IMG/VR virus record: IMGVR_UViG_3300022200_000056
Span: 1 to 55,201 of that record
DNA: 55,201 nt
Reading direction: 5' to 3' (one strand)
Origin: a virus
Lineage: Duplodnaviria; Caudoviricetes
Shown here in pieces: positions 29,851 through 45,022 of this stretch. Position numbers and translations under genes: made by a program. The number at the start of each line of letters is the position of its first letter. Position 1 is the stretch's first letter. Under the pieces are notes generated by a model. It did no database searches. It worked only from the letters and a program-made list of their open reading frames with translations, and had not been told where the DNA came from.

Positions 29851-30022
29851 CTCTAAACCTTCCTGATCTTGACATGGCATATGCAGATGTAATCATCATA
29901 AGCATGCCAATAAGCATAACAAGACAACCCAGCACAAGGCTATAGGTGTCTGGCAATTCAGCGACAGACATCCCTGCTTGTATAACGAGCAGAGAGGATA
30001 CAAAAATTATAGGCCAGATCAT
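29843..30022 (-). CDS. Small 2-TM membrane protein
   Basis: AAGGAG RBS; two hydrophobic helices. Confidence 0.6.
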   Translation of the reverse strand: MIWPIIFVSSLLVIQAGMSVAELPDTYSLVLGCLVMLIGMLMMITSAYAMSRSGRFRDE

Positions 30023-30032
30023 TTCATTCTCC

Positions 30033-30314
30033 TTATGATTTAAGTGATGCGCGACCACAGTGTGGGCATTCATGTAACATCATGTCTACATGGTATTGGA
30101 ATGTGTCCTCATCCATAAACTCATACGGCGAGTGGCTTGCTGAGAACATGGGCGCGATCACACCGTAATCGCCGCTCAGTTTTGTTTCCTCATAGCAGTC
30201 ATGAAATACCTTGCGGTTTTCCAAAGCGCCCTCAGCGTCATAGTAATCATCAACATGTGGCAGATACCTTATGCCACGGTATGAATATTCAGGTGCGTTA
30301 TCCCAACTAATCAT
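30033..30314 (-). CDS. Hypothetical protein with C-terminal CPHCG
   Basis: AAGGAG RBS; 93 aa. Confidence 0.6.
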   Translation of the reverse strand: MISWDNAPEYSYRGIRYLPHVDDYYDAEGALENRKVFHDCYEETKLSGDYGVIAPMFSASHSPYEFMDEDTFQYHVDMMLHECPHCGRASLKS

Positions 30315-30324
30315 GATTATCTCC

Positions 30325-31110
30325 TTATAGATTGTCGAGCAGTGTGCCCAAGACGAACGCCTTGGTTCTGCGGTTTAGTAATTCAATGGCAGACTGAAGG
30401 TTTTTTGAGTATGCATGAACCTTCTGCGTCTCGCCTTTATCTGACAACAAGTCAGTGCTATCATGGTTATGCACCACAAGCCATCCGATTTGGACATCAG
30501 GCACACTCTTTTTCCAAGTGACCGTCTTTACCTTGAAGGCAGTGGCAGTCTCTGGCAGTGCATCGAAAATTATGTCTGCCTTTTTTGCATGCATAACAAA
30601 CCTCTTGCCTGATCCTGACATCAGCATAGCAAGACCTTCTAAGAACACGTTGCGATACCAAGTCAACTTTAGACCCACACGATTAGTACATGTGTAATCG
30701 CTAGTTTTCTCATGCTCAATATATGTGTCCTTTGCATTGGATTCCACCACCCCAAGACCCATGCACCGTATGTAATTATCCGACAGAACACGTTGTGCAA
30801 GTGCGAAGGTTAGGTCTGCATGTTTTTTCATTGGGTTGAAGGTATTCTTTGATGTCTTTGCATTGGCAAATTGGCGATAGTCTCTAACCTGATTGACCAT
30901 ACTCTGCATGTACTTAACCACAGCACTCTCAACACCGAAGCAATGTTCATCAAAGAATTTATCAACATCAACGCTGATGTCAAATTTGCTTCTCCCCCTG
31001 AGGATTAGGCAAACCAAATCGTTTGGCATCTCCCAAGTTTTTGCCATGTCATTGATTGCCTTCTTACACTGCATCGCAGATAGATAATTCTTTTTTAATT
31101 GTTCATTCAT
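30325..31110 (-). CDS. Hypothetical protein
   Basis: Long ORF with GGAGA RBS. Confidence 0.7.
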   Translation of the reverse strand: MNEQLKKNYLSAMQCKKAINDMAKTWEMPNDLVCLILRGRSKFDISVDVDKFFDEHCFGVESAVVKYMQSMVNQVRDYRQFANAKTSKNTFNPMKKHADLTFALAQRVLSDNYIRCMGLGVVESNAKDTYIEHEKTSDYTCTNRVGLKLTWYRNVFLEGLAMLMSGSGKRFVMHAKKADIIFDALPETATAFKVKTVTWKKSVPDVQIGWLVVHNHDSTDLLSDKGETQKVHAYSKNLQSAIELLNRRTKAFVLGTLLDNL

Positions 31111-31146
31111 TGTAGTCTCCAATCATAAGAGGTTAAGATGGCGGCA

Positions 31147-32274
31147 CTATGCCGCCACCTGTATTCTTGTTGTTTCACCGATGGGTGCATCATTGCAATC
31201 CATATCGGTTGATACCCATAGCACTGGGTAATCTGGTGTTTCATTCGGATAGTCGAAGATGCCCATGTCAGTCAGGTAAACCATAGCATCGCATGGTATC
31301 TGATTGTCATAGACATAATCGAATACAGGCATGACGCGAGTGCCGCCTCTACCCTTGGCCTCGACACCGTTGATGTACTCGCCTTGAGCATACTCAGTCA
31401 CAGACTGAACCTCAGCATCGCAGACGATCAATGTGATAGAGCGCGGATTAAAATCCTCAATCAACTGGTTGAAGACACCAAGGAAATATTCCTGCTCACG
31501 CATCGATACACTGCCACTGCTATCCCAGCCCAGCACGATGTCACCGACACCGACACGATCAACTGCTGGCATGTATATGCCTTGGGTGTAGTACACTTTG
31601 CGATTGCACCGCCGCCATGTGTAATCTTCTGGCTGATCACCGCCAACAAATCTGCGGATCACATCCATCCAATCAACTTGAGAACGCCGCATGCGCGACA
31701 CCATCTCTTTAATCTTAGATGGTAGTTTGCCAGCGTTCTCAGCCGCCTGTGCCGCCATGAAGACACGCTGGTCTACATCTGCCGCCATCTGCTCCAGATC
31801 GCCCTGAGAGGGCTGTGAGCCGTCTTCATTGGATGCATCCATGACGATGCCCCATGATGGCTGATCCGCGCCGCCATCAGACTGAGGCAACAGGTCAAAT
31901 ATTTTCTCTGCCGCCATGCCTTTGTACTGCTCACTGAACAGGCCATCTTCTGGCAGGACAAAGCCGCCATCGGTGAGGATGTCATTGATGGCGTAGTCGG
32001 TGGCGATGTTCCATTTTTTATGATCACGATCACCGCGCCGCAGATGATGTTTCATCACGATGTGCATGACCTCATGAGCGATTACGCCCTTGATCTCATC
32101 CTCACTGTGACGGTCAACGAAGGGCTCTGCCCAGATGATCTTCTTGCCATCGGTTGCCATCGTCTCGATGCTATCATCTTGTACAAAATGACATCCAAGT
32201 GCGATGCTACCGAAGAAGGGGTGCTTGACCATTAGACTGGTCTTGCACCGTGCAATTTTTAGATTAGCATCCAT
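31147..32274 (-). CDS. Metallopeptidase-VWA protein (DUF2201-like)
   Basis: TMATDG, HEVMH, WNIATDYAIN, MIDAS DSSGS, GRGGT, YLTD. Confidence 0.9.
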   Translation of the reverse strand: MDANLKIARCKTSLMVKHPFFGSIALGCHFVQDDSIETMATDGKKIIWAEPFVDRHSEDEIKGVIAHEVMHIVMKHHLRRGDRDHKKWNIATDYAINDILTDGGFVLPEDGLFSEQYKGMAAEKIFDLLPQSDGGADQPSWGIVMDASNEDGSQPSQGDLEQMAADVDQRVFMAAQAAENAGKLPSKIKEMVSRMRRSQVDWMDVIRRFVGGDQPEDYTWRRCNRKVYYTQGIYMPAVDRVGVGDIVLGWDSSGSVSMREQEYFLGVFNQLIEDFNPRSITLIVCDAEVQSVTEYAQGEYINGVEAKGRGGTRVMPVFDYVYDNQIPCDAMVYLTDMGIFDYPNETPDYPVLWVSTDMDCNDAPIGETTRIQVAA

Positions 32275-32304
32275 GCTAGTCTCCATAAAAAAGTTCTATA
32301 TAAC

Positions 32305-33321
32305 TTACACAAGGGTAAGCGCGGAACCGTTGGTCAACGCCCACTGGCGAAGAGCCTCAACCTTTTTCAATTCAGGATCACGGCTCACCGCATCCTTGAT
32401 GACGAAGGCAGAAAATTCTTGCTGAGGCAGACGATTGAGGTATGCGATGATCTTGCCAAGGTTGGTTTGATTTGCCTTAAATGCCAGACCAGCACAGATT
32501 GCGTATGTCACCGCAGGATCTTCACTGATCATTGCAATCTCAGGATTAGCAATCAACTCATCGAGATCTGGACAGGTGTCATAGATCTTGAGAAACCCAA
32601 GAAAATCTGCACAGGCAGGACGCCCTACCTGACCAGCGATTGCCTCAGTCTGGCAGACTGCATCCAGCCCCCATCCCATGACAGATGACACCCTATCCCA
32701 TGATCGTGGCGATGGCGATGCATTGGCATCACGATCAAATTTATGTAACCATTCTGGGCGAAAGCGCAGGAACGCACAAATGCGTTGATCGACACCAACC
32801 TTATTGAAGTAGCCGATGGCATCCTCAAGGTCAGCCTCGATCTCCAAGAACATCAGGCGATCTTTAAGATGCGATGGCATGGTGTTTGTACCAGCGCGGT
32901 CACTGGTGCGATTGCCAGCCGCCACGATAGCCCAGCCATCAGGCAGACGGTGCTGACCGACACGCCGCTCATTGACGATTTGTGCGGCGATGTTCTGGTT
33001 GGCGACTGGTGCTTGAGGCAATTCATCCAAGAAGAGGATGCCCTCACCTTCCGAAGGCATCCAGTCTGGGCGAAGGCGTTTCATACCATCACCATCATTG
33101 ACCAGCCATCCTGCAAGTTCGCCAGCATCATACTGAGCAAGCGAAACGACAAGACACTGAACATCACGGCTTTTGGCGATGTCCTGAACAACGGTTGTTT
33201 TACCAAGACCAGCACCGCCGATCAGGTATGGGATTGGACGCATTGCATCGCGGCCTTGGGCGTTGGTGATTTGGCTGTCGATTGAAGCCTCGACAATGGC
33301 TTTTGATTGAGTAAGACGCAT
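32305..33321 (-). CDS. MoxR-like AAA+ ATPase
   Basis: Walker A GGAGLGKT, Walker B LFLDE, AAGNR, SPRSW; paired with VWA gene. Confidence 0.9.
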   Translation of the reverse strand: MRLTQSKAIVEASIDSQITNAQGRDAMRPIPYLIGGAGLGKTTVVQDIAKSRDVQCLVVSLAQYDAGELAGWLVNDGDGMKRLRPDWMPSEGEGILFLDELPQAPVANQNIAAQIVNERRVGQHRLPDGWAIVAAGNRTSDRAGTNTMPSHLKDRLMFLEIEADLEDAIGYFNKVGVDQRICAFLRFRPEWLHKFDRDANASPSPRSWDRVSSVMGWGLDAVCQTEAIAGQVGRPACADFLGFLKIYDTCPDLDELIANPEIAMISEDPAVTYAICAGLAFKANQTNLGKIIAYLNRLPQQEFSAFVIKDAVSRDPELKKVEALRQWALTNGSALTLV

Positions 33322-33353
33322 AACTTTTCTCCTTGTTTGCGTTGGTTATATGG

Positions 33354-33418
33354 CGAGATGCCACGACACCCCCGAAGGGGTGTTTCGACAGTTTCTCATG
33401 CTGTCATCGTCAGGTAGC
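33354..33418 (-). ncRNA. Hammerhead ribozyme, type I
   Basis: GCUAC-CUGACGA-U-GACAG(CAUGAGAAA)CUGUC-GAAA-CACCCC(UUCG)GGGGUG-UC^GUGGC; loop II UGAGA can pair with downstream UCUCG. Confidence 0.9.
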
Positions 33419-33419
33419 G

Positions 33420-34085
33420 TTATGCGGCATCAAGTGCGCCCAGCACCTTGTCCACAACTTCATTTTCAGATGCGGCATCAGCCATAGCCTTTGCCGCCGC
33501 ATCATCTGATGCAAGCCGTGCGGCCTTCAACTCGCGGCACGCATCATCGAACTCAGCCCAATCCATCGCATCGTATTTGGATGGCTTGAATGAACCAGTT
33601 ACGGTTTCTTTGCCGAACAACTTTTCTGCCAGTTTAAACATCTCAGATTTGCCAGCGTCACCATCGACAGCATCCATGAGTTTTTTCTCGCTATCAATTT
33701 CATGATCATCAAACACTGCCCTGACCATTTCGGGCGTTACGTTGTCGCCGCCAATGCCCAACTTGTGGCGAGCCTTGACGCTGTTCTCTTTCAGTTTCTT
33801 GGCGGTGGCTGGCTTGATGTATGCACCCAACTCTTCGCTCAGTTGTTTAGACACTGTGGCAGGAAGGCGTTTGTTCTTGCCATTGCCAACCAACCCGACT
33901 GGCGAGATCGCCACGATCAGGCTGACGTACTGGTTAATCTTATGGGCATTCATCTGCTGGGTGTTCGCGTTGTTCTCCATGGTGCGTGCCTTGTTCTCGC
34001 CGCGCAAATTAGCAATGGATGCCTCAGCATTGGCAATGTCTGCCATGGTGTTGTCGAAATTTTGAGTGTTAAAAATGTCCTGCAT
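33420..34085 (-). CDS. Hypothetical early protein
   Basis: AGGAGA RBS; 221 aa, Ala/Asp-rich helical. Confidence 0.75.
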   Translation of the reverse strand: MQDIFNTQNFDNTMADIANAEASIANLRGENKARTMENNANTQQMNAHKINQYVSLIVAISPVGLVGNGKNKRLPATVSKQLSEELGAYIKPATAKKLKENSVKARHKLGIGGDNVTPEMVRAVFDDHEIDSEKKLMDAVDGDAGKSEMFKLAEKLFGKETVTGSFKPSKYDAMDWAEFDDACRELKAARLASDDAAAKAMADAASENEVVDKVLGALDAA

Positions 34086-34117
34086 AATAGTCTCCTGTGA
34101 ATTGCAGTTGGTTGGTG

Positions 34118-34285
34118 TTATTTCCAGATCACTTCAATTTGTGAAGTTTTCTCATCGGTCTTCCATTCGCCGATAGGCTTGCGTGACATGGTGCAGAACA
34201 CCTTGCCAGCGCGGTCACCTACGACCTTTTCGAAACGATCAATTTCATTAAGAAAATCGTTAAATGTTTTGAAGATCTCTTTCAT
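34118..34285 (-). CDS. Small hypothetical protein (55 aa, not in ORF track)
   Basis: MKEIFKTFNDFLNEIDRFEKVVGDRAGKVFCTMSRKPIGEWKTDEKTSQIEVIWK with GGAGA RBS. Confidence 0.65.
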   Translation of the reverse strand: MKEIFKTFNDFLNEIDRFEKVVGDRAGKVFCTMSRKPIGEWKTDEKTSQIEVIWK

Positions 34286-34287
34286 GG

Positions 34288-34491
34288 TTATTCTCCCTTG
34301 AACTCAAAACGCTGGTCAAAATATGCAGGGTTGTCAGAGCATGCGATAGCATCCTTAACCTGTTGGACATTCATCCATCCGCACATTGCCATCTCGAAGG
34401 CATCATCGAAGTTGATGAAACCAAGATTAGCCAAGGTCTTCAGTGCCTCGCGGCGGATAGGTGTGAGTTTAGCATCTGCAATTTTAGACAT
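34288..34491 (-). CDS. Small hypothetical protein, first gene of leftward operon
   Basis: AGGAGA RBS overlapping hammerhead stem III; 67 aa. Confidence 0.7.
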   Translation of the reverse strand: MSKIADAKLTPIRREALKTLANLGFINFDDAFEMAMCGWMNVQQVKDAIACSDNPAYFDQRFEFKGE

Positions 34492-34499
34492 CGTTGTCT

Positions 34500-34549
34500 C
34501 CTGTTTCGTGGTTACTCTTCAGCATGGCGTACCAATCGCCATGGACAGG
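34500..34549 (-). ncRNA. Hammerhead ribozyme, type III
   Basis: CCUG-UC^CAUGGCG(AUUGGUA)CGCCAUG-CUGAAGA-GU(AACC)AC-GAAA-CAGG; complete core and complementary loops. Confidence 0.88.
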
Positions 34550-34550
34550 G

Positions 34551-34783
34551 GGGCAAGTTACCCTGCCCCGAACCCAGCCGCAGGAACTCACGCCCCTGCC
34601 AGATTTACCGCCCCACAAGCGCGAGCGCATCACTGCGGTCACACCCGATCTGTATCTCGAACTGCCCCATCGCAAGCGCGACAGGTGGGCTGGGTGACAT
34701 CGCCTCACCACTCCGTGAGGTAGAAGATCTGGGGCTGGTTACCAGAATGCCGAAGGTTGCCAAATCAGGGGCTGTGAACCCCT
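34551..34783 (-). ncRNA. Large unclassified structured RNA (multi-junction, GNRA loops)
   Basis: About nine nested or adjacent helices, GUGA x2 and GUAA tetraloops, G-U pairs favour the minus strand, no credible ORF. Confidence 0.65.
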
Positions 34784-35103
34784 TTGTCATATAGCCGCAG
34801 ATGGTTGTCAACCCCCCCTAATGGCTTTTTTTGGTCATTAATGGATATGTGTGACATATATGCAACAGTTAAAGGTCGAAATCGTCACTGGCGGCTTCTG
34901 GAAGATAGCCGTGTGTGATTATAAGCCAGAATACCTAAAGGCGCTCAGTGAGGCTTAAAACGCCAGTAATCGGCATTATTGGTTATTCTTTGCCAGTGTT
35001 GTTTCGGGGACGTAAATGGTAAAGTTATATAGAACAATTGAACGGCGAGACCAAAACCACGCCCAAGCGCAAGCGCATACTGGCGGCACACAGGGAATAC
35101 ATA

Positions 35104-35574
35104 ATGGGTAGAGATAAAGACAAAGATAAGATCATTAAACTAGTACCAGCATCGGATGGCCTCACTAGCAAACAGGAAACCTTCGCCAAGTTGGTAAGTG
35201 AGGGGCAGACACTCACTGATGCCTATCGATCAGCGTACAGCGCAGAAAAGATGAAGGATAGTTCAGTATGGGTTGAAGCATGCAAGTTGAGGCAACACCC
35301 CAAGGTGTCCCAAAGGATAGAGGCGTTATCAGGTGAGATCACCGCACGTCAGGCATCTGAAGACGAACGGCTCAGGATATTTGTGACTGAACAGTTGAAG
35401 CATGAGGCTTTGGGTGCAGGATCAGACAGCGCAAGGGTTCAGGCACTGGTGGCATTGGGCAGATCGGTGGCAATGTTCAGTGACAAGGTTATCGAAGAGG
35501 ACAGCACACACCGCACAGCGTCTGAGATTGAGGCTGAGATCCAAGATCGCCTGTCGCGACTGCTTGGTTCCTGA
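35104..35574 (+). CDS. terS: Terminase small subunit
   Basis: LTSKQETFAKLV..TDAYRSAY..ACKLRQHPKVSQRI..ARVQALVALGR. Confidence 0.8.
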   Translation: MGRDKDKDKIIKLVPASDGLTSKQETFAKLVSEGQTLTDAYRSAYSAEKMKDSSVWVEACKLRQHPKVSQRIEALSGEITARQASEDERLRIFVTEQLKHEALGAGSDSARVQALVALGRSVAMFSDKVIEEDSTHRTASEIEAEIQDRLSRLLGS

Positions 35575-35688
35575 TCTGTCTGGGGGTGGACACAGCGCAT
35601 TCCGCACTGGCTTGACCCCCACCCCACCCCATCCCCCCTGTATGGCGCGGCGCATACAACACACTATACACTGTGAAATGCACAACCA

Positions 35689-35898
35689 ATGAGTATCCTA
35701 GAAAATCTAGACATCTGCCAAGGTAATTGCATCTTAGATGATGAGAAATGTATAATTTGCTGTAGGTCCTTTCATGAAATAGCCGTGTGGGACGATTTAA
35801 CGCCCTCTGAGAGGGATTGGATGACTACTATGGTGCAGGGTAGGCAGGATAGACTCTGGACGCTCTGGTGGGGCTCTGAGAGCGTTTTAAAGAATTAG
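35689..35898 (+). CDS. DUF1289-like Cys-rich protein
   Basis: CQGNCILDDEKCIICCRSFHEIAVW..SER. Confidence 0.7.
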   Translation: MSILENLDICQGNCILDDEKCIICCRSFHEIAVWDDLTPSERDWMTTMVQGRQDRLWTLWWGSESVLKN

Positions 35899-35998
35899 CA
35901 TAATTTAATAGTTCTCTAGAACTTTTACCCCCCCCTATTCTTAAAAATTATTTTGCTAGTTATAATTTTAGGGAAGGGGTTCTTTCTAGGAAAGTACC

Positions 35999-36232
35999 CT
36001 AGGAATCCTGTGCCCCCACGTTGGCACCGTACATCTGTAAGGTTTCCCAGCCATCTTCTAGCTCTTCTTCAGGGGGCGGCTTTAGGTTTTCCTTGGCATA
36101 TTCCACGCCAGCCTTTATTGCGTGGTAAATTCCGGAAGATATCATGGCGGATTTTACCTTATCGCACATATCTATCGTGACCGTGGCGCTACCGTCTTCG
36201 TGCTCAACAACATCAACAACTTCTATTTTCAT
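35999..36232 (-). CDS. Small hypothetical protein
   Basis: MKIEVVDVVEHEDGSATV motif; GGGAG RBS. Confidence 0.6.
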   Translation of the reverse strand: MKIEVVDVVEHEDGSATVTIDMCDKVKSAMISSGIYHAIKAGVEYAKENLKPPPEEELEDGWETLQMYGANVGAQDS

Positions 36233-36250
36233 TAAAATCTCCCTCGTCCC

Positions 36251-36333
36251 TTACTAGTTATAATAACATATAACTAGTTATAATTATATATATACATAAC
36301 TAGTTATAAGTAGTAAATAGTTATATACTAGTT
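36251..36333. repeat. AT-rich island of ACTAGTTATA repeats
   Basis: Four ACTAGTT copies, including palindromic TATAACTAGTTATA. Confidence 0.7.
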
Positions 36334-36335
36334 GG

Positions 36336-36399
36336 GCGGGCTGATGTCTCCCCTGCCCGCAGGGGGAGTTGAGCGTGGTCCTCCCGACGCTCCTCCCCC
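36336..36399 (+). promoter_or_regulatory. Two GC-rich hairpins with CUCCC loops (late-operon leader or sRNA)
   Basis: GCGGGC/GCCCGC with loop UGAUGUCUCCCCU; GGGGGAG..GAGCGU/ACGCUC-CUCCCCC with loop GGUCCUCCCG. Confidence 0.45.
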
Positions 36400-36415
36400 A
36401 CCTTAAGGAGAACGA

Positions 36416-36661
36416 ATGAGCAACAAAGTTATAAACTTCCCCGGCGTTAATTTTAAAAACGATGGAATGGGGGATATAGACCCAGACGATATGCTGAAGG
36501 CTATTGCTGAGGAGTCTGTGCTAGACAGCGTTGTTGTGCTAGGCTGGACAAAGGAAAACAATTTATTTGTTGCCACCAGTGGGGAAAGCGGCCCCGAGAT
36601 TATTTTTCTAATGGAGATTGCGAAGTCGGTTATTGTTAACAGATGTTTGCAGATTGAATAA
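36416..36661 (+). CDS. Hypothetical protein
   Basis: AAGGAG RBS; NKVINFPG..VVVLGW motif. Confidence 0.7.
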   Translation: MSNKVINFPGVNFKNDGMGDIDPDDMLKAIAEESVLDSVVVLGWTKENNLFVATSGESGPEIIFLMEIAKSVIVNRCLQIE

Positions 36662-41526: not shown

Positions 41527-42458
41527 ATGATCCAGTAGAAAAATACGAAGACGACACCGAGATTAAATCTGGTGCTGATGAAAGTTCTATAGAACTTGAA
41601 ATTGTAGACGATACTCCTGAAGAGGATCGTAACAAGCCGCGCCGTTCAGACGATGCGGAGCCTGATATTCCAGAGGACGATGAGATTGCCAACTATGGCG
41701 AGAACGTCCAAAAGCGTATCAAGCAACTTAAGTATGAGTTCCACGAGGAGCGACGCCGCAAAGAGGAAGCGTCTCGGCTACAGGATGAAGCCGTATCATA
41801 CGCGCAAAAAATTTATGAAGAGAACCAGCGTCTCAAGAAAGCCCTTGAGGACGGCGAAGGCGTTCTGATTAATCAGGCAAAAGGCCGGGTTGAAGCAGAA
41901 CTAGATAAAGCAAAGTCAGCCTACAAAGCCGCCTACGAAAGCGGTGACCCAGATGCTTTGGTTGAAGCGCAAGAAAAACTTTCTGAACTTCAAGCAGAAA
42001 AACTTCGGGTTAATTCTTTCAGACCTCAAAAGCAAGCAGAGACTCCAGCGCCAGAATTAAAAAAAGCGCCACAGCCTCAAAAGCCAGACGAACACGCAAT
42101 GCGTTGGGCAGAAAAGAATGACTGGTTCAATAAAGATAAAATGATGACGGCGTTTGCCTATGGTGTGCATGAGGATTTAGTCAGCACTCATGGCATTGAT
42201 CCGCGTCGATCACCAGAAATTTATTATGAACGCATCGATAAAGAGATGCGGAAAAGATTTCCAGACAAGTTCGGTGAGCAAAGTTTTGAGGACGCACCTG
42301 CTCGCCAAACTGGTTCCGTGGTTGCCCCCGCTAATCGGAGTGCAAAAAAACCACGCAGGGTGCAACTTACCTCAACGCAAGTCTCTCTCGCCAAGAGGCT
42401 TGGCCTGACTAACGAACAGTATGCGGCGCAACTCTTGAAGGAGTCATCTAATGTCTGA
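41523..42458 (+). CDS. Capsid scaffolding protein
   Basis: Acidic N-terminus, coiled coil, C-terminal LTSTQVSLAKRLGLTNEQYA. Confidence 0.75.
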   Translation: MNDPVEKYEDDTEIKSGADESSIELEIVDDTPEEDRNKPRRSDDAEPDIPEDDEIANYGENVQKRIKQLKYEFHEERRRKEEASRLQDEAVSYAQKIYEENQRLKKALEDGEGVLINQAKGRVEAELDKAKSAYKAAYESGDPDALVEAQEKLSELQAEKLRVNSFRPQKQAETPAPELKKAPQPQKPDEHAMRWAEKNDWFNKDKMMTAFAYGVHEDLVSTHGIDPRRSPEIYYERIDKEMRKRFPDKFGEQSFEDAPARQTGSVVAPANRSAKKPRRVQLTSTQVSLAKRLGLTNEQYAAQLLKESSNV

Positions 42459-43564: not shown

Positions 43565-44470
43565 ATGACGATTTCACGCGCACAACTCCTGAAGGAACTG
43601 TTGCCCGGTCTTAATGCACTGTTCGGCATGGAATACGATAAGTACGAAAACGAACATGCTGAAATCTACGAAACCGAAACATCCGAACGCTCCTTCGAAG
43701 AAGAAGTGAAATTATCGGGCTTCGGCGCCGCTCCGGTTAAGCCGGAAGGTTCAGCGATTTCCTATGACAATGCACAGGAATCCTTCACTGCTCGTTACAA
43801 CCACGAAACGGTTGCAATGGGCTTCTCAGTGACCGAAGAAGCTATGGAGGATAACCTCTATGACGCGCTCTCCGCTCGCTACACAAAAGCCTTGGCTCGC
43901 GCCATGGCTTATACCAAGCAGGTCAAGGCGGCTTCACTGCTGAACACTGGCTTCACCACTTTCCAATCTGGCGATGGTGTGACCCTGTTCAACGCCTCTC
44001 ACCCAACTGTTGCTGGCGGTAACAACGCTAACCGTCCTTCTGTTGCGGCTGACCTGAACGAAACTTCTTTGGAAGATGCTGTTATCAACATCGCCGCATT
44101 CACTGATGAACGCGGTCTGTTGATTGCCGCTCGCCCACGGAAGTTGATCGTTCCACCTGCACTGATGTTTGTAGCAACTCGCTTGCTTCAGACAGACCTG
44201 CGGACTGGTACTGCTGATAACGACATCAACGCTCTGCGTAGCAATGGCTCGATCCCTGAAGGGTTCCGTGTCAACCACTACCTGACAGACACCGATGCGT
44301 TCTTCATCACTACCGATGTTCCAAATGGCATGAAGCACTTTGTCCGTACCGCAATGTCAACCTCAATGGATGGTGACTTCGATACTGGCAACGTTCGCTA
44401 CAAAGCCCGTGAGCGCTATAGTTTCGGCGTATCCGATCCTCTTGGGATCTACGGTTCACCCGGCGCCTAA
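43565..44470 (+). CDS. Major capsid protein
   Basis: ISRAQLLKELLPGLNALFG..GDGVTLF..HP..RYKARERYSFG; strong codon bias; followed by terminator. Confidence 0.9.
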   Translation: MTISRAQLLKELLPGLNALFGMEYDKYENEHAEIYETETSERSFEEEVKLSGFGAAPVKPEGSAISYDNAQESFTARYNHETVAMGFSVTEEAMEDNLYDALSARYTKALARAMAYTKQVKAASLLNTGFTTFQSGDGVTLFNASHPTVAGGNNANRPSVAADLNETSLEDAVINIAAFTDERGLLIAARPRKLIVPPALMFVATRLLQTDLRTGTADNDINALRSNGSIPEGFRVNHYLTDTDAFFITTDVPNGMKHFVRTAMSTSMDGDFDTGNVRYKARERYSFGVSDPLGIYGSPGA

Positions 44471-44524: not shown

Positions 44525-44593
44525 GTGTATAATGTATAAGAACCTTGACAGCCGCATGGTGTGGCTGACATTAGCCAAGACAAGGAGTTCCTC

Positions 44594-45022
44594 ATGGCTA
44601 CCACAACTTTTTCCGGTCCTATTAAAGCAGGATCGATCCGCGAAGGCGCATCTGCGAATGTCGGCTTCGTAAAAATGGCTCAAACTGCATCTTGGACTCA
44701 GTCTACAACCGCAGCTGATACAGGTATTACAATCCCTGCTAATAGCCAAATCACTGAAATTTCAATCTACATCACAACGGCTCCCGCTACTTCCAACATT
44801 AGTATGGGTACAAGCTCAACTTCTACTGAGCTGTTTACTGCTCTTGCCTCTGGCACAGCTGCAAATGTAATCCTGCATGGCTCTGACGGCACTATTACAG
44901 ATGCAGATACTTGGGCTGATATTGGTTCCTCGGATGTTAGTATCTTTATTGACTTTTCCGCTGGTTCAACGGGTGCTGGCTATGTGACTGTAGAATACAT
45001 TCAAAACATTAATAACGCCTAA
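44594..45022 (+). CDS. Virion structural protein
   Basis: AAGGAG RBS; MATTTFSGPIKAG start; Thr/Ser-rich. Confidence 0.7.
   Translation: MATTTFSGPIKAGSIREGASANVGFVKMAQTASWTQSTTAADTGITIPANSQITEISIYITTAPATSNISMGTSSTSTELFTALASGTAANVILHGSDGTITDADTWADIGSSDVSIFIDFSAGSTGAGYVTVEYIQNINNA

What the first reader, a model, noticed from the sequence alone, without database searches (positions are those of the whole stretch)
33354..34810. Candidate RNA-processing system: large structured RNA plus two hammerhead ribozymes partition the leftward early operon
Seen on the minus strand, in order: a TTGACA hexamer (34811-34806), a ~230-nt folded RNA, a type III hammerhead, three small or unknown genes, a type I hammerhead, then the MoxR AAA+ and VWA-peptidase genes. 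Known: hammerheads self-cleave at NUH sites and leave 2',3'-cyclic phosphate and 5'-OH ends. Inference: one early transcript cuts itself into a free structured ncRNA, an mRNA for the three small genes, and an mRNA for the AAA+/VWA module. This would be protein-independent transcript maturation, analogous to RNase III processing of T7 early RNA. I do not know of this architecture being described.
Basis: partly seen in the sequence, partly recalled or inferred. Interest (0 to 1): 0.92.

Follow-up and report, generated by a model that had tools for sequence, protein, structure and literature searches.

The report
Two hammerhead ribozymes in phage operon
A freshwater phage carries two self-cutting RNA motifs (hammerhead ribozymes) that probably cut one long message into separate pieces; this arrangement was already described for phages in 2011, so it is a good new example and not a new kind of system.

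Summary
One is type III (34549-34500, cut 34544/34543). The other is type I (33418-33360, cut 33365/33364). A descriptor scan finds only these two in 55 kb; 0 of 200 shuffles gave two or more. Rfam finds neither, but its models also miss proven relatives. The type I motif belongs to a large phage class with an extra U after A9 and a loop II-tail pseudoknot: 92 of 125 pattern matches are complete hammerheads, against 0 of 2440 flank-shuffled controls. The type III motif has a 2-bp stem II and a loop-loop pseudoknot, with 12 distinct relatives, always just upstream of a start codon. Only 3 of those 12 keep a canonical C3. The upstream "structured RNA" is partly supported. A 95-nt 5' element is conserved in five lineages, each followed by a type III or type III-like hammerhead. 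The global fold is not significant (z -1.41). The TTGACA has no proper -10. Cleavage and transcription remain inferred. Hammerhead-punctuated phage operons were published by Perreault et al. 2011, so the novelty claim fails. Verdict: new member of a known kind, with a possibly new leader element.

The parts
34806..34811 (-). TTGACA hexamer proposed as -35; not supported as a sigma-70 promoter
   Evidence: Present. No -10 lies at 16-18 nt. The transcription start is unknown.
34699..34793 (-). Conserved 5' leader element. It includes an invariant 18-nt block (34774-34757) and hairpin B (34746-34728).
   Evidence: nhmmer profile hits with E 1e-17 to 1e-25 in five lineages: window/L004, L077, L259, L204, L206. 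Hairpin B has 5 pairs; 3 of them change on both sides and none is broken. No Rfam family matches.
34545..34698 (-). Variable, GC-rich 3' part of the leader. It ends in a hairpin (34569-34550) directly before the hammerhead.
   Evidence: 64.9% GC against 46.5% for the window. Indels relative to L004 break every reading frame. A 6-nt segment (34604-34599) is complementary to 34732-34727, with compensatory change in the L077 group.
34500..34549 (-). Type III hammerhead (HH-A); predicted cut between 34544 and 34543. Stem I 34543-34537/34529-34523, core 34522-34516, stem II 34515-34514/34509-34508, GAA 34507-34505, stem III 34549-34545/34504-34500.
   Evidence: There are 12 distinct relatives with covarying stem I, stem III and loop-loop pseudoknot. 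The 3' strand of stem III overlaps the Shine-Dalgarno of the next gene.
34288..34491 (-). 67-aa ORF, first gene after HH-A; no family match
   Evidence: Homologues follow the hammerhead in L077, L055 and L079. The ORF is absent from L004.
34118..34285 (-). 55-aa ORF; no family match
33420..34085 (-). 221-aa ORF; a phage-only family of unknown function
   Evidence: the nearest Atlas clusters are all viral 'hypothetical protein'. Homologues occur in L055, L061, L074, L095, L204 and L259.
33354..33418 (-). Type I hammerhead (HH-B) with an extra U after A9 and a pseudoknot between loop II (33398-33394) and the 3' tail (33358-33354); predicted cut between 33365 and 33364.
   Evidence: 81% identical copy in Caulobacter phage S2B, with compensatory changes.
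32305..33321 (-). AAA+ ATPase gene, 43 nt downstream of the HH-B cut site
   Evidence: phrog_1297 E 5.7e-73; Pfam AAA 21.5 bits.
31147..32286 (-). DUF2201 metallopeptidase-like plus VWA-like protein gene
   Evidence: PF13203 E 1.7e-41, PF09967 E 4.2e-18, phrog_1314.

Best explanation
The minus-strand operon that diverges from the terminase genes of this ~55-kb freshwater tailed phage carries two genuine self-cleaving hammerhead ribozymes. The inferred mechanism is as follows. The operon RNA cuts itself after C34544 and after C33365, leaving 2',3'-cyclic phosphate and 5'-OH ends. This gives three products: (1) a ~250-nt or longer non-coding leader; (2) an mRNA for the 67-, 55- and 221-aa genes; (3) an mRNA that starts 43 nt before the AAA+ ATPase gene. 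The type III ribozyme stays on the 5' end of product 2, which then begins with the 7-bp stem I hairpin. Cleavage removes the strand that pairs with the first bases of the Shine-Dalgarno, so it should both cap the mRNA with a 5'-OH hairpin and unmask translation of the first gene. The type I ribozyme stays on the 3' end of product 2 as a folded 3' structure. Product 3 can refold its first 15 nt into a small 5' hairpin. The leader carries a conserved 95-nt 5' element that, in five lineages, lies 200-340 nt upstream of a type III or type III-like hammerhead. I take it to be a cis-acting or released regulatory RNA of unknown role. What is shown: the motifs, their covariation, their conserved positions and the synteny. 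What is inferred: transcription, cleavage, differential stability or translation, and any role of the leader.
For: - Specificity: there are exactly 2 descriptor hits in the window, both at the predicted sites. 0 of 200 shuffles had two or more. A relaxed scan adds only one spurious hit inside the portal gene.
- HH-B, closest copy: the only blastn hit of the 1.7-kb region in 50,697 phage records is the HH-B motif itself. It lies in Caulobacter phage S2B, at 81% identity, with compensatory changes in stems II and III and in the pseudoknot.
- HH-B, class: the class pattern gave 125 matches in IMG/VR loci, and 92 of them are complete hammerheads. The flank-shuffled control gave 0 of 2440.
- HH-B, covariation: on 55 aligned members, 94.4% of cells pair against 73.1% when shuffled. 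The covariation score is 0.577 against 0.170, and 0 of 500 shuffles reach it. The three central pseudoknot pairs were not used for selection; each is paired in 53 of 55 sequences, with 3, 9 and 31 double changes.
- HH-A: there are 12 distinct family members. Stem I shows 2-5 standard pair types at each of the five positions counted, and no unpaired cell. Stem III shows U-A to C-G covariation. The loop-loop pairing switches between GGU/ACC and CGU/ACG.
- Synteny: the order TerL, TerS, divergent leader/hammerhead, p221, ATPase, DUF2201 is kept in relatives.
- Array in a relative: L261 has the leader, then a type III hammerhead, then five type I hammerheads between genes on one strand.
- Literature: clustered phage hammerheads cleave in vitro and in E. 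coli; stem II of 1-2 bp and pseudoknots are normal (Perreault 2011). Masking the SD in a ribozyme stem and freeing it by cleavage raises expression in E. coli (Felletti 2016).
Against: - Rfam 15 gives no hammerhead hit in the region, even at E<=10. It also misses all 6 U-insert type I examples in four other loci at E<=1.
- No cleavage or transcription data exist. The metatranscriptome runs gave only read-length contigs.
- Only 3 of the 12 HH-A family members have a canonical C3 next to stem I. The other 9 carry 2 or more linker nucleotides, so fast cleavage may not be what is conserved in that family.
- HH-A has a stem II of only 2 bp.
- HH-B has a non-consensus extra U in the core.
- Most ATPase relatives show no hammerhead. 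18 of 18 scanned had no Rfam hit at gathering, and my strict scan of the 69 ATPase loci found hammerheads only in L005 and L061. The processing is therefore dispensable for this operon type.
- The promoter is not identified.
- The leader's global fold is not significant and differs between lineages.
Confidence: 0.8

Rival explanations
1. HH-A is mainly a structured 5'-UTR element that controls ribosome access or mRNA stability. Self-cleavage is slow, conditional or dispensable, and the hammerhead fold is kept for its shape.
For: 9 of 12 distinct family members lack a canonical C3 directly after stem I. They have linkers CA, CU, UU, UA or UAU, and two also have an extra 18-nt hairpin. They still keep stems I and III, the pseudoknot and the position 5-12 nt before an ATG. 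Perreault 2011 found that insertions near C3 impair cleavage under standard conditions.
Against: The window's own copy, and those of L077 and L075, have a fully canonical core. L206 has an ordinary type III hammerhead at the same position after the same leader (Rfam Hammerhead_3, 43.5 bits, E 3.3e-6). This argues that cleavage is the shared function.
Confidence: 0.12
2. The conserved 5' leader element works at the DNA level, as a promoter, operator, packaging or replication signal in the terminase-proximal divergent region. It is not a functional RNA released by the ribozyme.
For: Conservation is mostly of primary sequence: an 18-nt block is invariant in all five lineages. The element sits in the divergent region next to TerS. 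The global RNA fold is not significant or consistent. No transcription start is known.
Against: Hairpin B keeps pairing through changes on both sides at 3 of its 5 pairs, across three lineages. The element's orientation and its pairing with a downstream type III hammerhead are constant, while its distance to TerS varies from about 70 to about 310 nt.
Confidence: 0.25
3. The two ribozymes mark a mobile or exchangeable gene cassette, or make a circular or ligated RNA. Ordinary mRNA maturation is not their role.
For: Homology between the window and its 95%-identical relative L004 breaks exactly at the HH-A cut site and resumes at the next gene. This swaps the ribozyme body and removes the 67-aa gene. 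HH-B is 81% identical to a copy in an unrelated Caulobacter podophage. The genes that flank hammerheads differ between relatives.
Against: No repeats or integrase flank the block. Perreault 2011 looked for spliced or circular products and found none. Conserved ribozyme sequence can by itself act as a recombination point.
Confidence: 0.05
4. The motifs are chance matches to the hammerhead consensus.
For: No Rfam hit.
Against: 0 of 200 shuffles give two sites. Both motifs have families with covariation.
Confidence: 0.01

Closest known systems
Clustered hammerhead ribozymes flanking genes in prophages and phages (Perreault et al. 2011, PLoS Comput Biol, PMC3088659)
   Same: Several hammerheads lie on one strand and bracket single genes or short gene blocks of unknown or variable identity in phage DNA. 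The proposed role is cutting long phage transcripts into gene- or operon-length mRNAs. Pseudoknots link stems I and II, and stem II can be 1-2 bp.
   Different: This case has a conserved non-coding leader element upstream of the first (type III) ribozyme. The type I copy has an extra U after A9. Nothing has been assayed here.
Caulobacter phage S2B (MN857473) early region
   Same: It holds an 81%-identical copy of HH-B plus two more hammerheads on the same strand: type III first, then two type I. They lie between small genes upstream of the T7-type RNA polymerase gene.
   Different: It is an unrelated podophage (Autographiviridae) with a different host. It has no AAA+/DUF2201 pair, and the leader element was not found there by nhmmer. 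The record annotates none of the ribozymes.
RNase III processing of T7 early transcripts (recalled textbook knowledge, not checked in a paper here)
   Same: A long early phage RNA is cut at intergenic structured sites into separate mRNAs whose end structures affect stability and translation.
   Different: The T7 cuts need a host protein enzyme and leave 5'-phosphate and 3'-OH ends. A hammerhead cuts itself and leaves 5'-OH and 2',3'-cyclic phosphate ends.
Synthetic ribozyme expression platforms with the Shine-Dalgarno masked in a ribozyme stem (Felletti et al. 2016, PMC5052635, passages read)
   Same: The SD is paired in a stem of a self-cleaving ribozyme in the 5' UTR, and cleavage frees it and raises expression in E. 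coli. HH-A has the same geometry: the 3' strand of stem III overlaps the SD.
   Different: Those constructs are engineered. In HH-A only 2 bases of the GGAG are inside the 5-bp stem III, so the masking may be weak.
Cis-acting phage leader RNAs such as lambda nut and HK022 put (recalled, not tested)
   Same: They are short conserved structured elements close to the start of early phage transcripts.
   Different: No sequence or structure match was tested or found. This comparison is only a lead for the leader's role.

Membership tests
Hammerhead ribozyme (HH-A, type III, 34549-34500) | Conserved core C3 U4 G5 A6 N7 G8 A9 / G12 A13 A14 / A15.1-U16.1 / H17 not G | tested here: met
   All positions are canonical in the window. 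Only 3 of 12 distinct family members are canonical at C3.
Hammerhead ribozyme (HH-A, type III, 34549-34500) | Three helices around the core, supported by covariation | tested here: met
   Stem I shows 2-5 standard pair types at each of the five positions counted, with no unpaired cell in 12 sequences. Stem III position 3 is U-A in 9 and C-G in 2. Stem II is only 1-2 bp, and its second pair forms in some members only.
Hammerhead ribozyme (HH-A, type III, 34549-34500) | [quoted passage not shown] | tested here: met
   Complementarity between loop I and loop II is kept in two covarying forms, GGU(A)/(U)ACC and CGU(A)/(U)ACG, in all 12 members. I read this by eye from the table.
Hammerhead ribozyme (HH-B, type I, 33418-33360) | Conserved core | tested here: inconclusive
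   All core bases are present, but one extra U lies between A9 and G10.1. The same insertion is in all 92 complete hammerheads recovered by the class pattern; the pattern required it. An extra base at this place in active viroid hammerheads is something I recall, not something I checked.
Hammerhead ribozyme (HH-B, type I, 33418-33360) | Three helices and a stem I/II tertiary contact with covariation | tested here: met
   helices are 99-100% paired (partly by selection). The pseudoknot was not selected; its three central pairs are each paired in 53 of 55 sequences, with 3, 9 and 31 double changes; 92 of 125 against 0 of 2440.
Hammerhead ribozyme (both) | Score at or above the Rfam gathering threshold (RF00163, RF00008, RF02276 and relatives) | tested here: not met
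   No hammerhead hit at gathering or at E<=10. The same models score the S2B type I at 19 bits against a threshold of 34, and miss 6 of 6 U-insert type I copies at E<=1. This therefore reflects model coverage.
Hammerhead ribozyme (both) | Site-specific self-cleavage giving 2',3'-cyclic phosphate and 5'-OH | not testable with these tools
The RNA-run contigs were uninformative.
Clustered phage hammerhead arrangement (Perreault 2011) | Two or more hammerheads on one strand, in intergenic positions, bracketing genes in phage DNA | tested here: met
   Both are on the minus strand. HH-A ends 8 nt before the ATG at 34491. HH-B starts 1 nt after the stop at 33420 and lies before the ATG at 33321. Arrays of 2-9 occur on 35 locus-strands.
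Any described RNA family (leader, 34545-34810) | Match to an Rfam covariance model | tested here: not met
   Only a chance-level hit: TtnuCD16, 15.1 bits, E 5.6.
Sigma-70 promoter (TTGACA 34811-34806) | A -35 and a -10 hexamer separated by 16-18 nt | tested here: not met
   The scan reports no site there. The nearest TATA-like hexamer is 12 nt away.
MoxR-type AAA+ ATPase (32305-33321) | Match to MoxR-type AAA models and pairing with a VWA protein | tested here: inconclusive
   Generic AAA scores 21.5 bits against a cut-off of 21.2, and AAA_5 is below its cut-off. There is no NCBIfam hit. The adjacent DUF2201 VWA-like protein is present.

The most novel reading that the evidence does not exclude
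The conserved 95-nt element at the 5' end of the leader defines a new phage RNA class. It is made as the first part of the operon transcript and is then set free, or cut off from the coding RNA, by a dedicated type III hammerhead. That hammerhead at the same time unmasks the first ribosome-binding site. The leader may toggle between hairpin B and a long-range helix that closes the whole domain. It may act as an antitermination-like or decoy RNA. In that case the ribozyme would be a timing device, not only a cutter.
Probability: 0.18. Interest if true: 0.65.

Novelty: new member of a known kind. Interest (0 to 1): 0.38.

Why it matters
The biological role of the hundreds of bacterial and phage hammerheads is still called elusive (review PMC6765202, passages read). 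This phage group offers a compact natural test set:
- the same operon with and without ribozymes;
- a type III copy placed so that cleavage should free a Shine-Dalgarno;
- natural core-linker variants next to canonical copies;
- a conserved leader that always precedes the first ribozyme.

It also shows that an abundant phage type I class with an extra U after A9 is not found by current Rfam models, so phage ribozyme counts based on Rfam are too low.

Tried and rejected
- Rfam cmscan of the whole window at gathering, and of 33250-34900 at E<=10, gave no hammerhead. I do not count this against the motifs, because the same models miss or under-score related phage hammerheads.
- Metatranscriptome runs X16, X21 and X22 were laid on 30000-36500. 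They gave 4, 6 and 6 read-length contigs. None lies on the leader or on either ribozyme, and none bridges or ends at a cut site. This is no evidence either way; DNA carry-over is also possible.
- The sigma-70 scan gave no promoter at the TTGACA.
- The global fold of the leader has z -1.41. Single-sequence MFE folds of five lineages share no common architecture.
- The 16-base leader motif scan of IMG/VR gave 62 stretches. 56 of them were unrelated sequences, mostly inside other contexts; only L077, L081, L082, L204, L206 and L247 were true relatives. The stricter scan of metagenome contigs gave 5 loci, adding one new lineage, L259. An nhmmer profile found no further members among the loci held.
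- blastn of the leader against the loci held found only near-identical copies and weak pieces.
- Function of the three small proteins: there were no hits in Pfam, PHROGs or NCBIfam. The Atlas gave only viral hypothetical clusters for the 221-aa protein.
- I looked for other ribozyme classes at the same place in 18 ATPase relatives and found none at gathering.
- I looked for a second copy or a complement of the invariant leader block in the window and found none.
- The idea that type III always comes first in mixed arrays holds in 4 of 5 distinct arrays. Two of those four are one lineage, so this is only a weak trend.
- I could not see the supplements of Perreault 2011 (Figures S1-S8, alignments). 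They may already contain the U-insert type I class, the linker variants or relatives of this phage.
Full report
**What the window is.** The window is a whole IMG/VR virus record of 55,201 bases, about 93% complete by CheckV, with 46.5% G+C. It encodes a small and a large terminase, an SU10-type portal, head and tail proteins, a primase-helicase and a 3063-aa protein. Near-identical DNA is held by freshwater, aquatic and estuary metagenome runs. The finding lies in the region where a minus-strand operon diverges from the plus-strand terminase genes.

**The observation.** Read on the minus strand, the region has the following, in order:
- TTGACA at 34811-34806.
- About 260 nt without a usable ORF.
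- A type III hammerhead at 34549-34500.
- ORFs of 67, 55 and 221 aa.
- A type I hammerhead at 33418-33360.
- An AAA+ ATPase (phrog_1297, E 5.7e-73).
- A DUF2201 metallopeptidase/VWA-like protein.

I scanned both strands of the window with a hammerhead descriptor: CUGANGA, an optional single base, stem II, GAAA, stems I and III of 4 bp or more, and UH. It found only these two sites. Dinucleotide shuffles gave a mean of 0.055 sites; 11 of 200 had one or more and 0 of 200 had two or more. A looser descriptor added one spurious site inside the portal gene.

**Why Rfam is silent.** Rfam 15 reports no hammerhead in the window at gathering, nor in 33250-34900 at E<=10. This reflects model coverage.
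- In Caulobacter phage S2B, Rfam scores a textbook type I copy at 19 bits against a threshold of 34, and does not report the HH-B homologue at all.
- In four other loci it misses 6 of 6 type I copies of the same class at E<=1, and it also misses 4 HH-A-like elements.
- In those six loci it reports only the canonical type III of L206, at 43.5 bits against a threshold of 48.5.

**HH-B (type I).** A sensitive blastn of the 1.7-kb region against 50,697 phage records gave one hit. It is the ribozyme itself, 81% identical over 67-69 nt, in the otherwise unrelated podophage S2B. Relative to the window, S2B has compensatory changes in stems II and III and an extended loop II-tail pairing.

The class signature is the core with an extra U after A9, a fixed-length stem II region, and GAAAC.
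- Of the 125 matches in those loci, 92 are complete hammerheads (75 distinct sequences). After shuffling the flanks, 0 of 2440 were complete.
- I aligned 55 of the 79 distinct members, those with a stem III hairpin of 14-20 nt, together with the window and S2B.
- On that alignment 94.4% of cells pair, against 73.1% in column shuffles and 28-44% when the partners are slid. The covariation score is 0.577 against 0.170, and 0 of 500 shuffles reach it.
- Stems I-III were part of the selection, so their pairing is partly built in. The pseudoknot between loop II and the bases just 3' of stem I was not selected. Its three central pairs are each paired in 53 of 55 sequences, with 3, 9 and 31 double changes.
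- A pseudoknot of 4 bp or more occurs in 75% of 80 distinct members. When loops are matched with the tails of other members, the figure is 45%.

HH-B is therefore a member of a large, phage-borne, pseudoknotted type I class.

**HH-A (type III).** The window's copy has a 7-bp stem I, a canonical core, a stem II of only 2 bp with a 4-nt loop, and a 5-bp stem III. Pattern and regex scans of the loci held gave 12 distinct relatives.
- In all 12, stem I is a perfect hairpin, and each of the five positions counted shows 2-5 standard pair types.
- Stem III position 3 covaries: U-A in 9, C-G in 2. One row was mis-parsed by my script.
- Loop I can pair with loop II in two covarying forms, GGU(A)/(U)ACC and CGU(A)/(U)ACG.
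- Every member ends 5-12 nt before an ATG, and the 3' strand of stem III runs into the Shine-Dalgarno.
- Perreault et al. 2011 report that stem II is commonly 2 bp and in one case 1 bp, that about 40% of hammerheads use a pseudoknot between stems I and II, and that such pseudoknots are needed for fast cleavage. HH-A fits known variation.

A result against a simple reading: only 3 of the 12 (window, L077, L075) have C3 directly after stem I. The other 9 have two or more linker bases (CA, CA, CU, UU, UA, UA, UAU), and two of them also have an 18-nt extra hairpin. Perreault et al. found that insertions near C3 cripple cleavage under standard conditions. So part of this family may cut slowly, conditionally or not at all. 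The window's copy is canonical.

**The leader.** The 266 nt from TTGACA to the cut site are 60% G+C. They have no credible ORF. Relative to the 95%-identical relative L004 they differ by three indels of -1, -1 and +2 nt, which would break any reading frame.
- The MFE is not unusual (z -1.41), and single-sequence folds of five lineages do not agree.
- The 5' 95 nt (34793-34699) are conserved in five lineages: window/L004, L077, L259, L204 and L206 with four near-identical copies. Profile E-values run from 1e-17 to 1e-25.
- An 18-nt block is invariant.
- Hairpin B (34746-34728) keeps 5 pairs; 3 of them change on both sides and none is broken.
- In every lineage a type III or type III-like hammerhead follows 200-340 nt downstream, and then the first gene. 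In L206 it is an ordinary type III with a 5-bp stem II; in L204 and L259 it carries a linker insertion.
- The 3' strand of hairpin B also has a complement 46-64 nt before the cut site in the window, L082, L077, L259 and L204, with two compensatory changes between the window type and the L077 type. It competes with hairpin B. With so few lineages and so G+C-rich a sequence, I cannot decide between the two.
- The leader matches no Rfam family.
- The TTGACA has no -10 at a proper distance, so the transcription start is unknown.

**Context in relatives.** tblastn shows the order TerL, TerS, divergent region, (p67), p221, ATPase, DUF2201 in many of the loci.
- Ribozyme positions move. The type I copy lies after the p221 gene in the window and L095, but before it in L061 and L074.
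- Most ATPase relatives have none. My strict scan of the 69 ATPase loci found hammerheads only in L005 and L061. Variant type III-like copies occur in L055/L056 and L061. 18 of 18 further relatives have no Rfam hit at gathering.
- Elsewhere, arrays are common. 35 locus-strands carry two or more hammerheads, up to 9 in 3.4 kb (L147) and 7 (L152).
- The leader-bearing relative L261 has the leader, a type III copy, and then five type I copies between successive genes.
- S2B has three, type III first, between small genes upstream of its RNA polymerase gene.

**How it most likely works.** The motifs, their covariation and their placement are shown. The rest is inferred from hammerhead chemistry and from published work on such arrays.
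- The operon RNA cuts itself twice.
- A type III motif has its cut near its 5' edge, so the ribozyme body stays on the downstream mRNA. That mRNA then begins with a 5'-OH and the stem I hairpin. The released strand is the one that paired with the start of the Shine-Dalgarno.
- A type I motif has its cut near its 3' edge, so the body stays as a folded 3' end on the upstream mRNA. The ATPase mRNA starts 43 nt before its ATG and can form a small 5' hairpin.
- This placement suggests that the ribozymes give each product protective end structures, uncouple the stability and translation of neighbouring genes, and detach the leader.
- Engineered ribozymes with a masked SD behave this way in E. coli (Felletti 2016).

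**Comparison with what is known, and novelty.** Perreault et al. 2011 (passages read; supplements not available) describe these points:
- multiple hammerheads flanking genes or short gene blocks in prophages;
- the proposal that long phage transcripts are processed into operon- or gene-length mRNAs;
- cleavage of ~2-kb polycistronic constructs in vitro and in E. coli;
- short stems II, pseudoknots and insertions near C3.

A 2019 review repeats the processing idea and says the role is still undefined. The architecture is therefore already in print. This is a new member of a known kind. Three things may be new: the conserved leader element tied to a type III hammerhead; the abundance of the U-insert type I class that Rfam does not find; and the set of natural linker variants. 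I searched the literature only with the terms, and I found no paper on this leader or on this phage group.

**Verdict.** I put 0.8 on two functional self-cleaving hammerheads that process the operon RNA. I put about 0.18 on the leader being a new functional RNA class coupled to the ribozyme.

Noticed in passing
window 44543-44596 (+): Rfam Mu-gpT-DE RNA, 67.8 bits (threshold 49), E 1.1e-13. It ends on the ATG at 44594-44596, inside ORF 44561-45022, just after the head-protein gene 43565-44470.
   Followed up: no
window, 14 sites including 35023-35036, 32292-32305, 35910-35923 and 41583-41596: A dispersed 14-bp palindrome (perfect copy at 41583) has 14 matches at 2 or fewer mismatches, against 0.15 expected. 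One copy lies between the leader and TerS, and one lies between the ATPase and DUF2201 genes. It is a candidate phage promoter or regulator site (first noted in e1-6303670).
   Followed up: partly
window 34544/34543 to 34298; L004 802-885: Homology to the 95%-identical relative L004 stops exactly at the HH-A cut site and resumes at the 55-aa gene. L004 lacks the 67-aa gene and carries a different HH-A variant, with an extra hairpin and U in place of C3. That variant resembles the one in L074.
   Followed up: partly
L147 2992-6428 (+); L152 1853-5188 (+); L261 minus strand: Hammerhead arrays of 9, 7 and 6 copies on one strand, placed between almost every small gene.
   Followed up: partly
Rfam 15 does not report them at E<=1 in the 6 copies tested.
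   Followed up: partly
L055 1158-1222, L204 1045-1109, L259 2932-2996, L061 1390-1454, L095 1636-1701, L079 9205-9269, L084 5787-5852: HH-A relatives have one or two extra bases between stem I and U4, and some have no C at position 3. All stems, the pseudoknot and the position before an ATG are kept. They may be slow or conditional ribozymes.
   Followed up: partly
L001 (Caulobacter phage S2B MN857473) 6562-6505, 4655-4589, 4069-4009, minus strand: Three hammerheads (type III, type I, type I with extra U) lie between small hypothetical genes upstream of the T7-type RNA polymerase gene. None is annotated in the record. The last one overlaps the annotated 3' end of gp060c.
   Followed up: partly
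L055/L056 about 2376-2450: A second, canonical-core type III hammerhead, with a 4-bp stem II but only a 3-bp stem III, lies directly upstream of the p221 homologue and is preceded by a GC hairpin.
   Followed up: no
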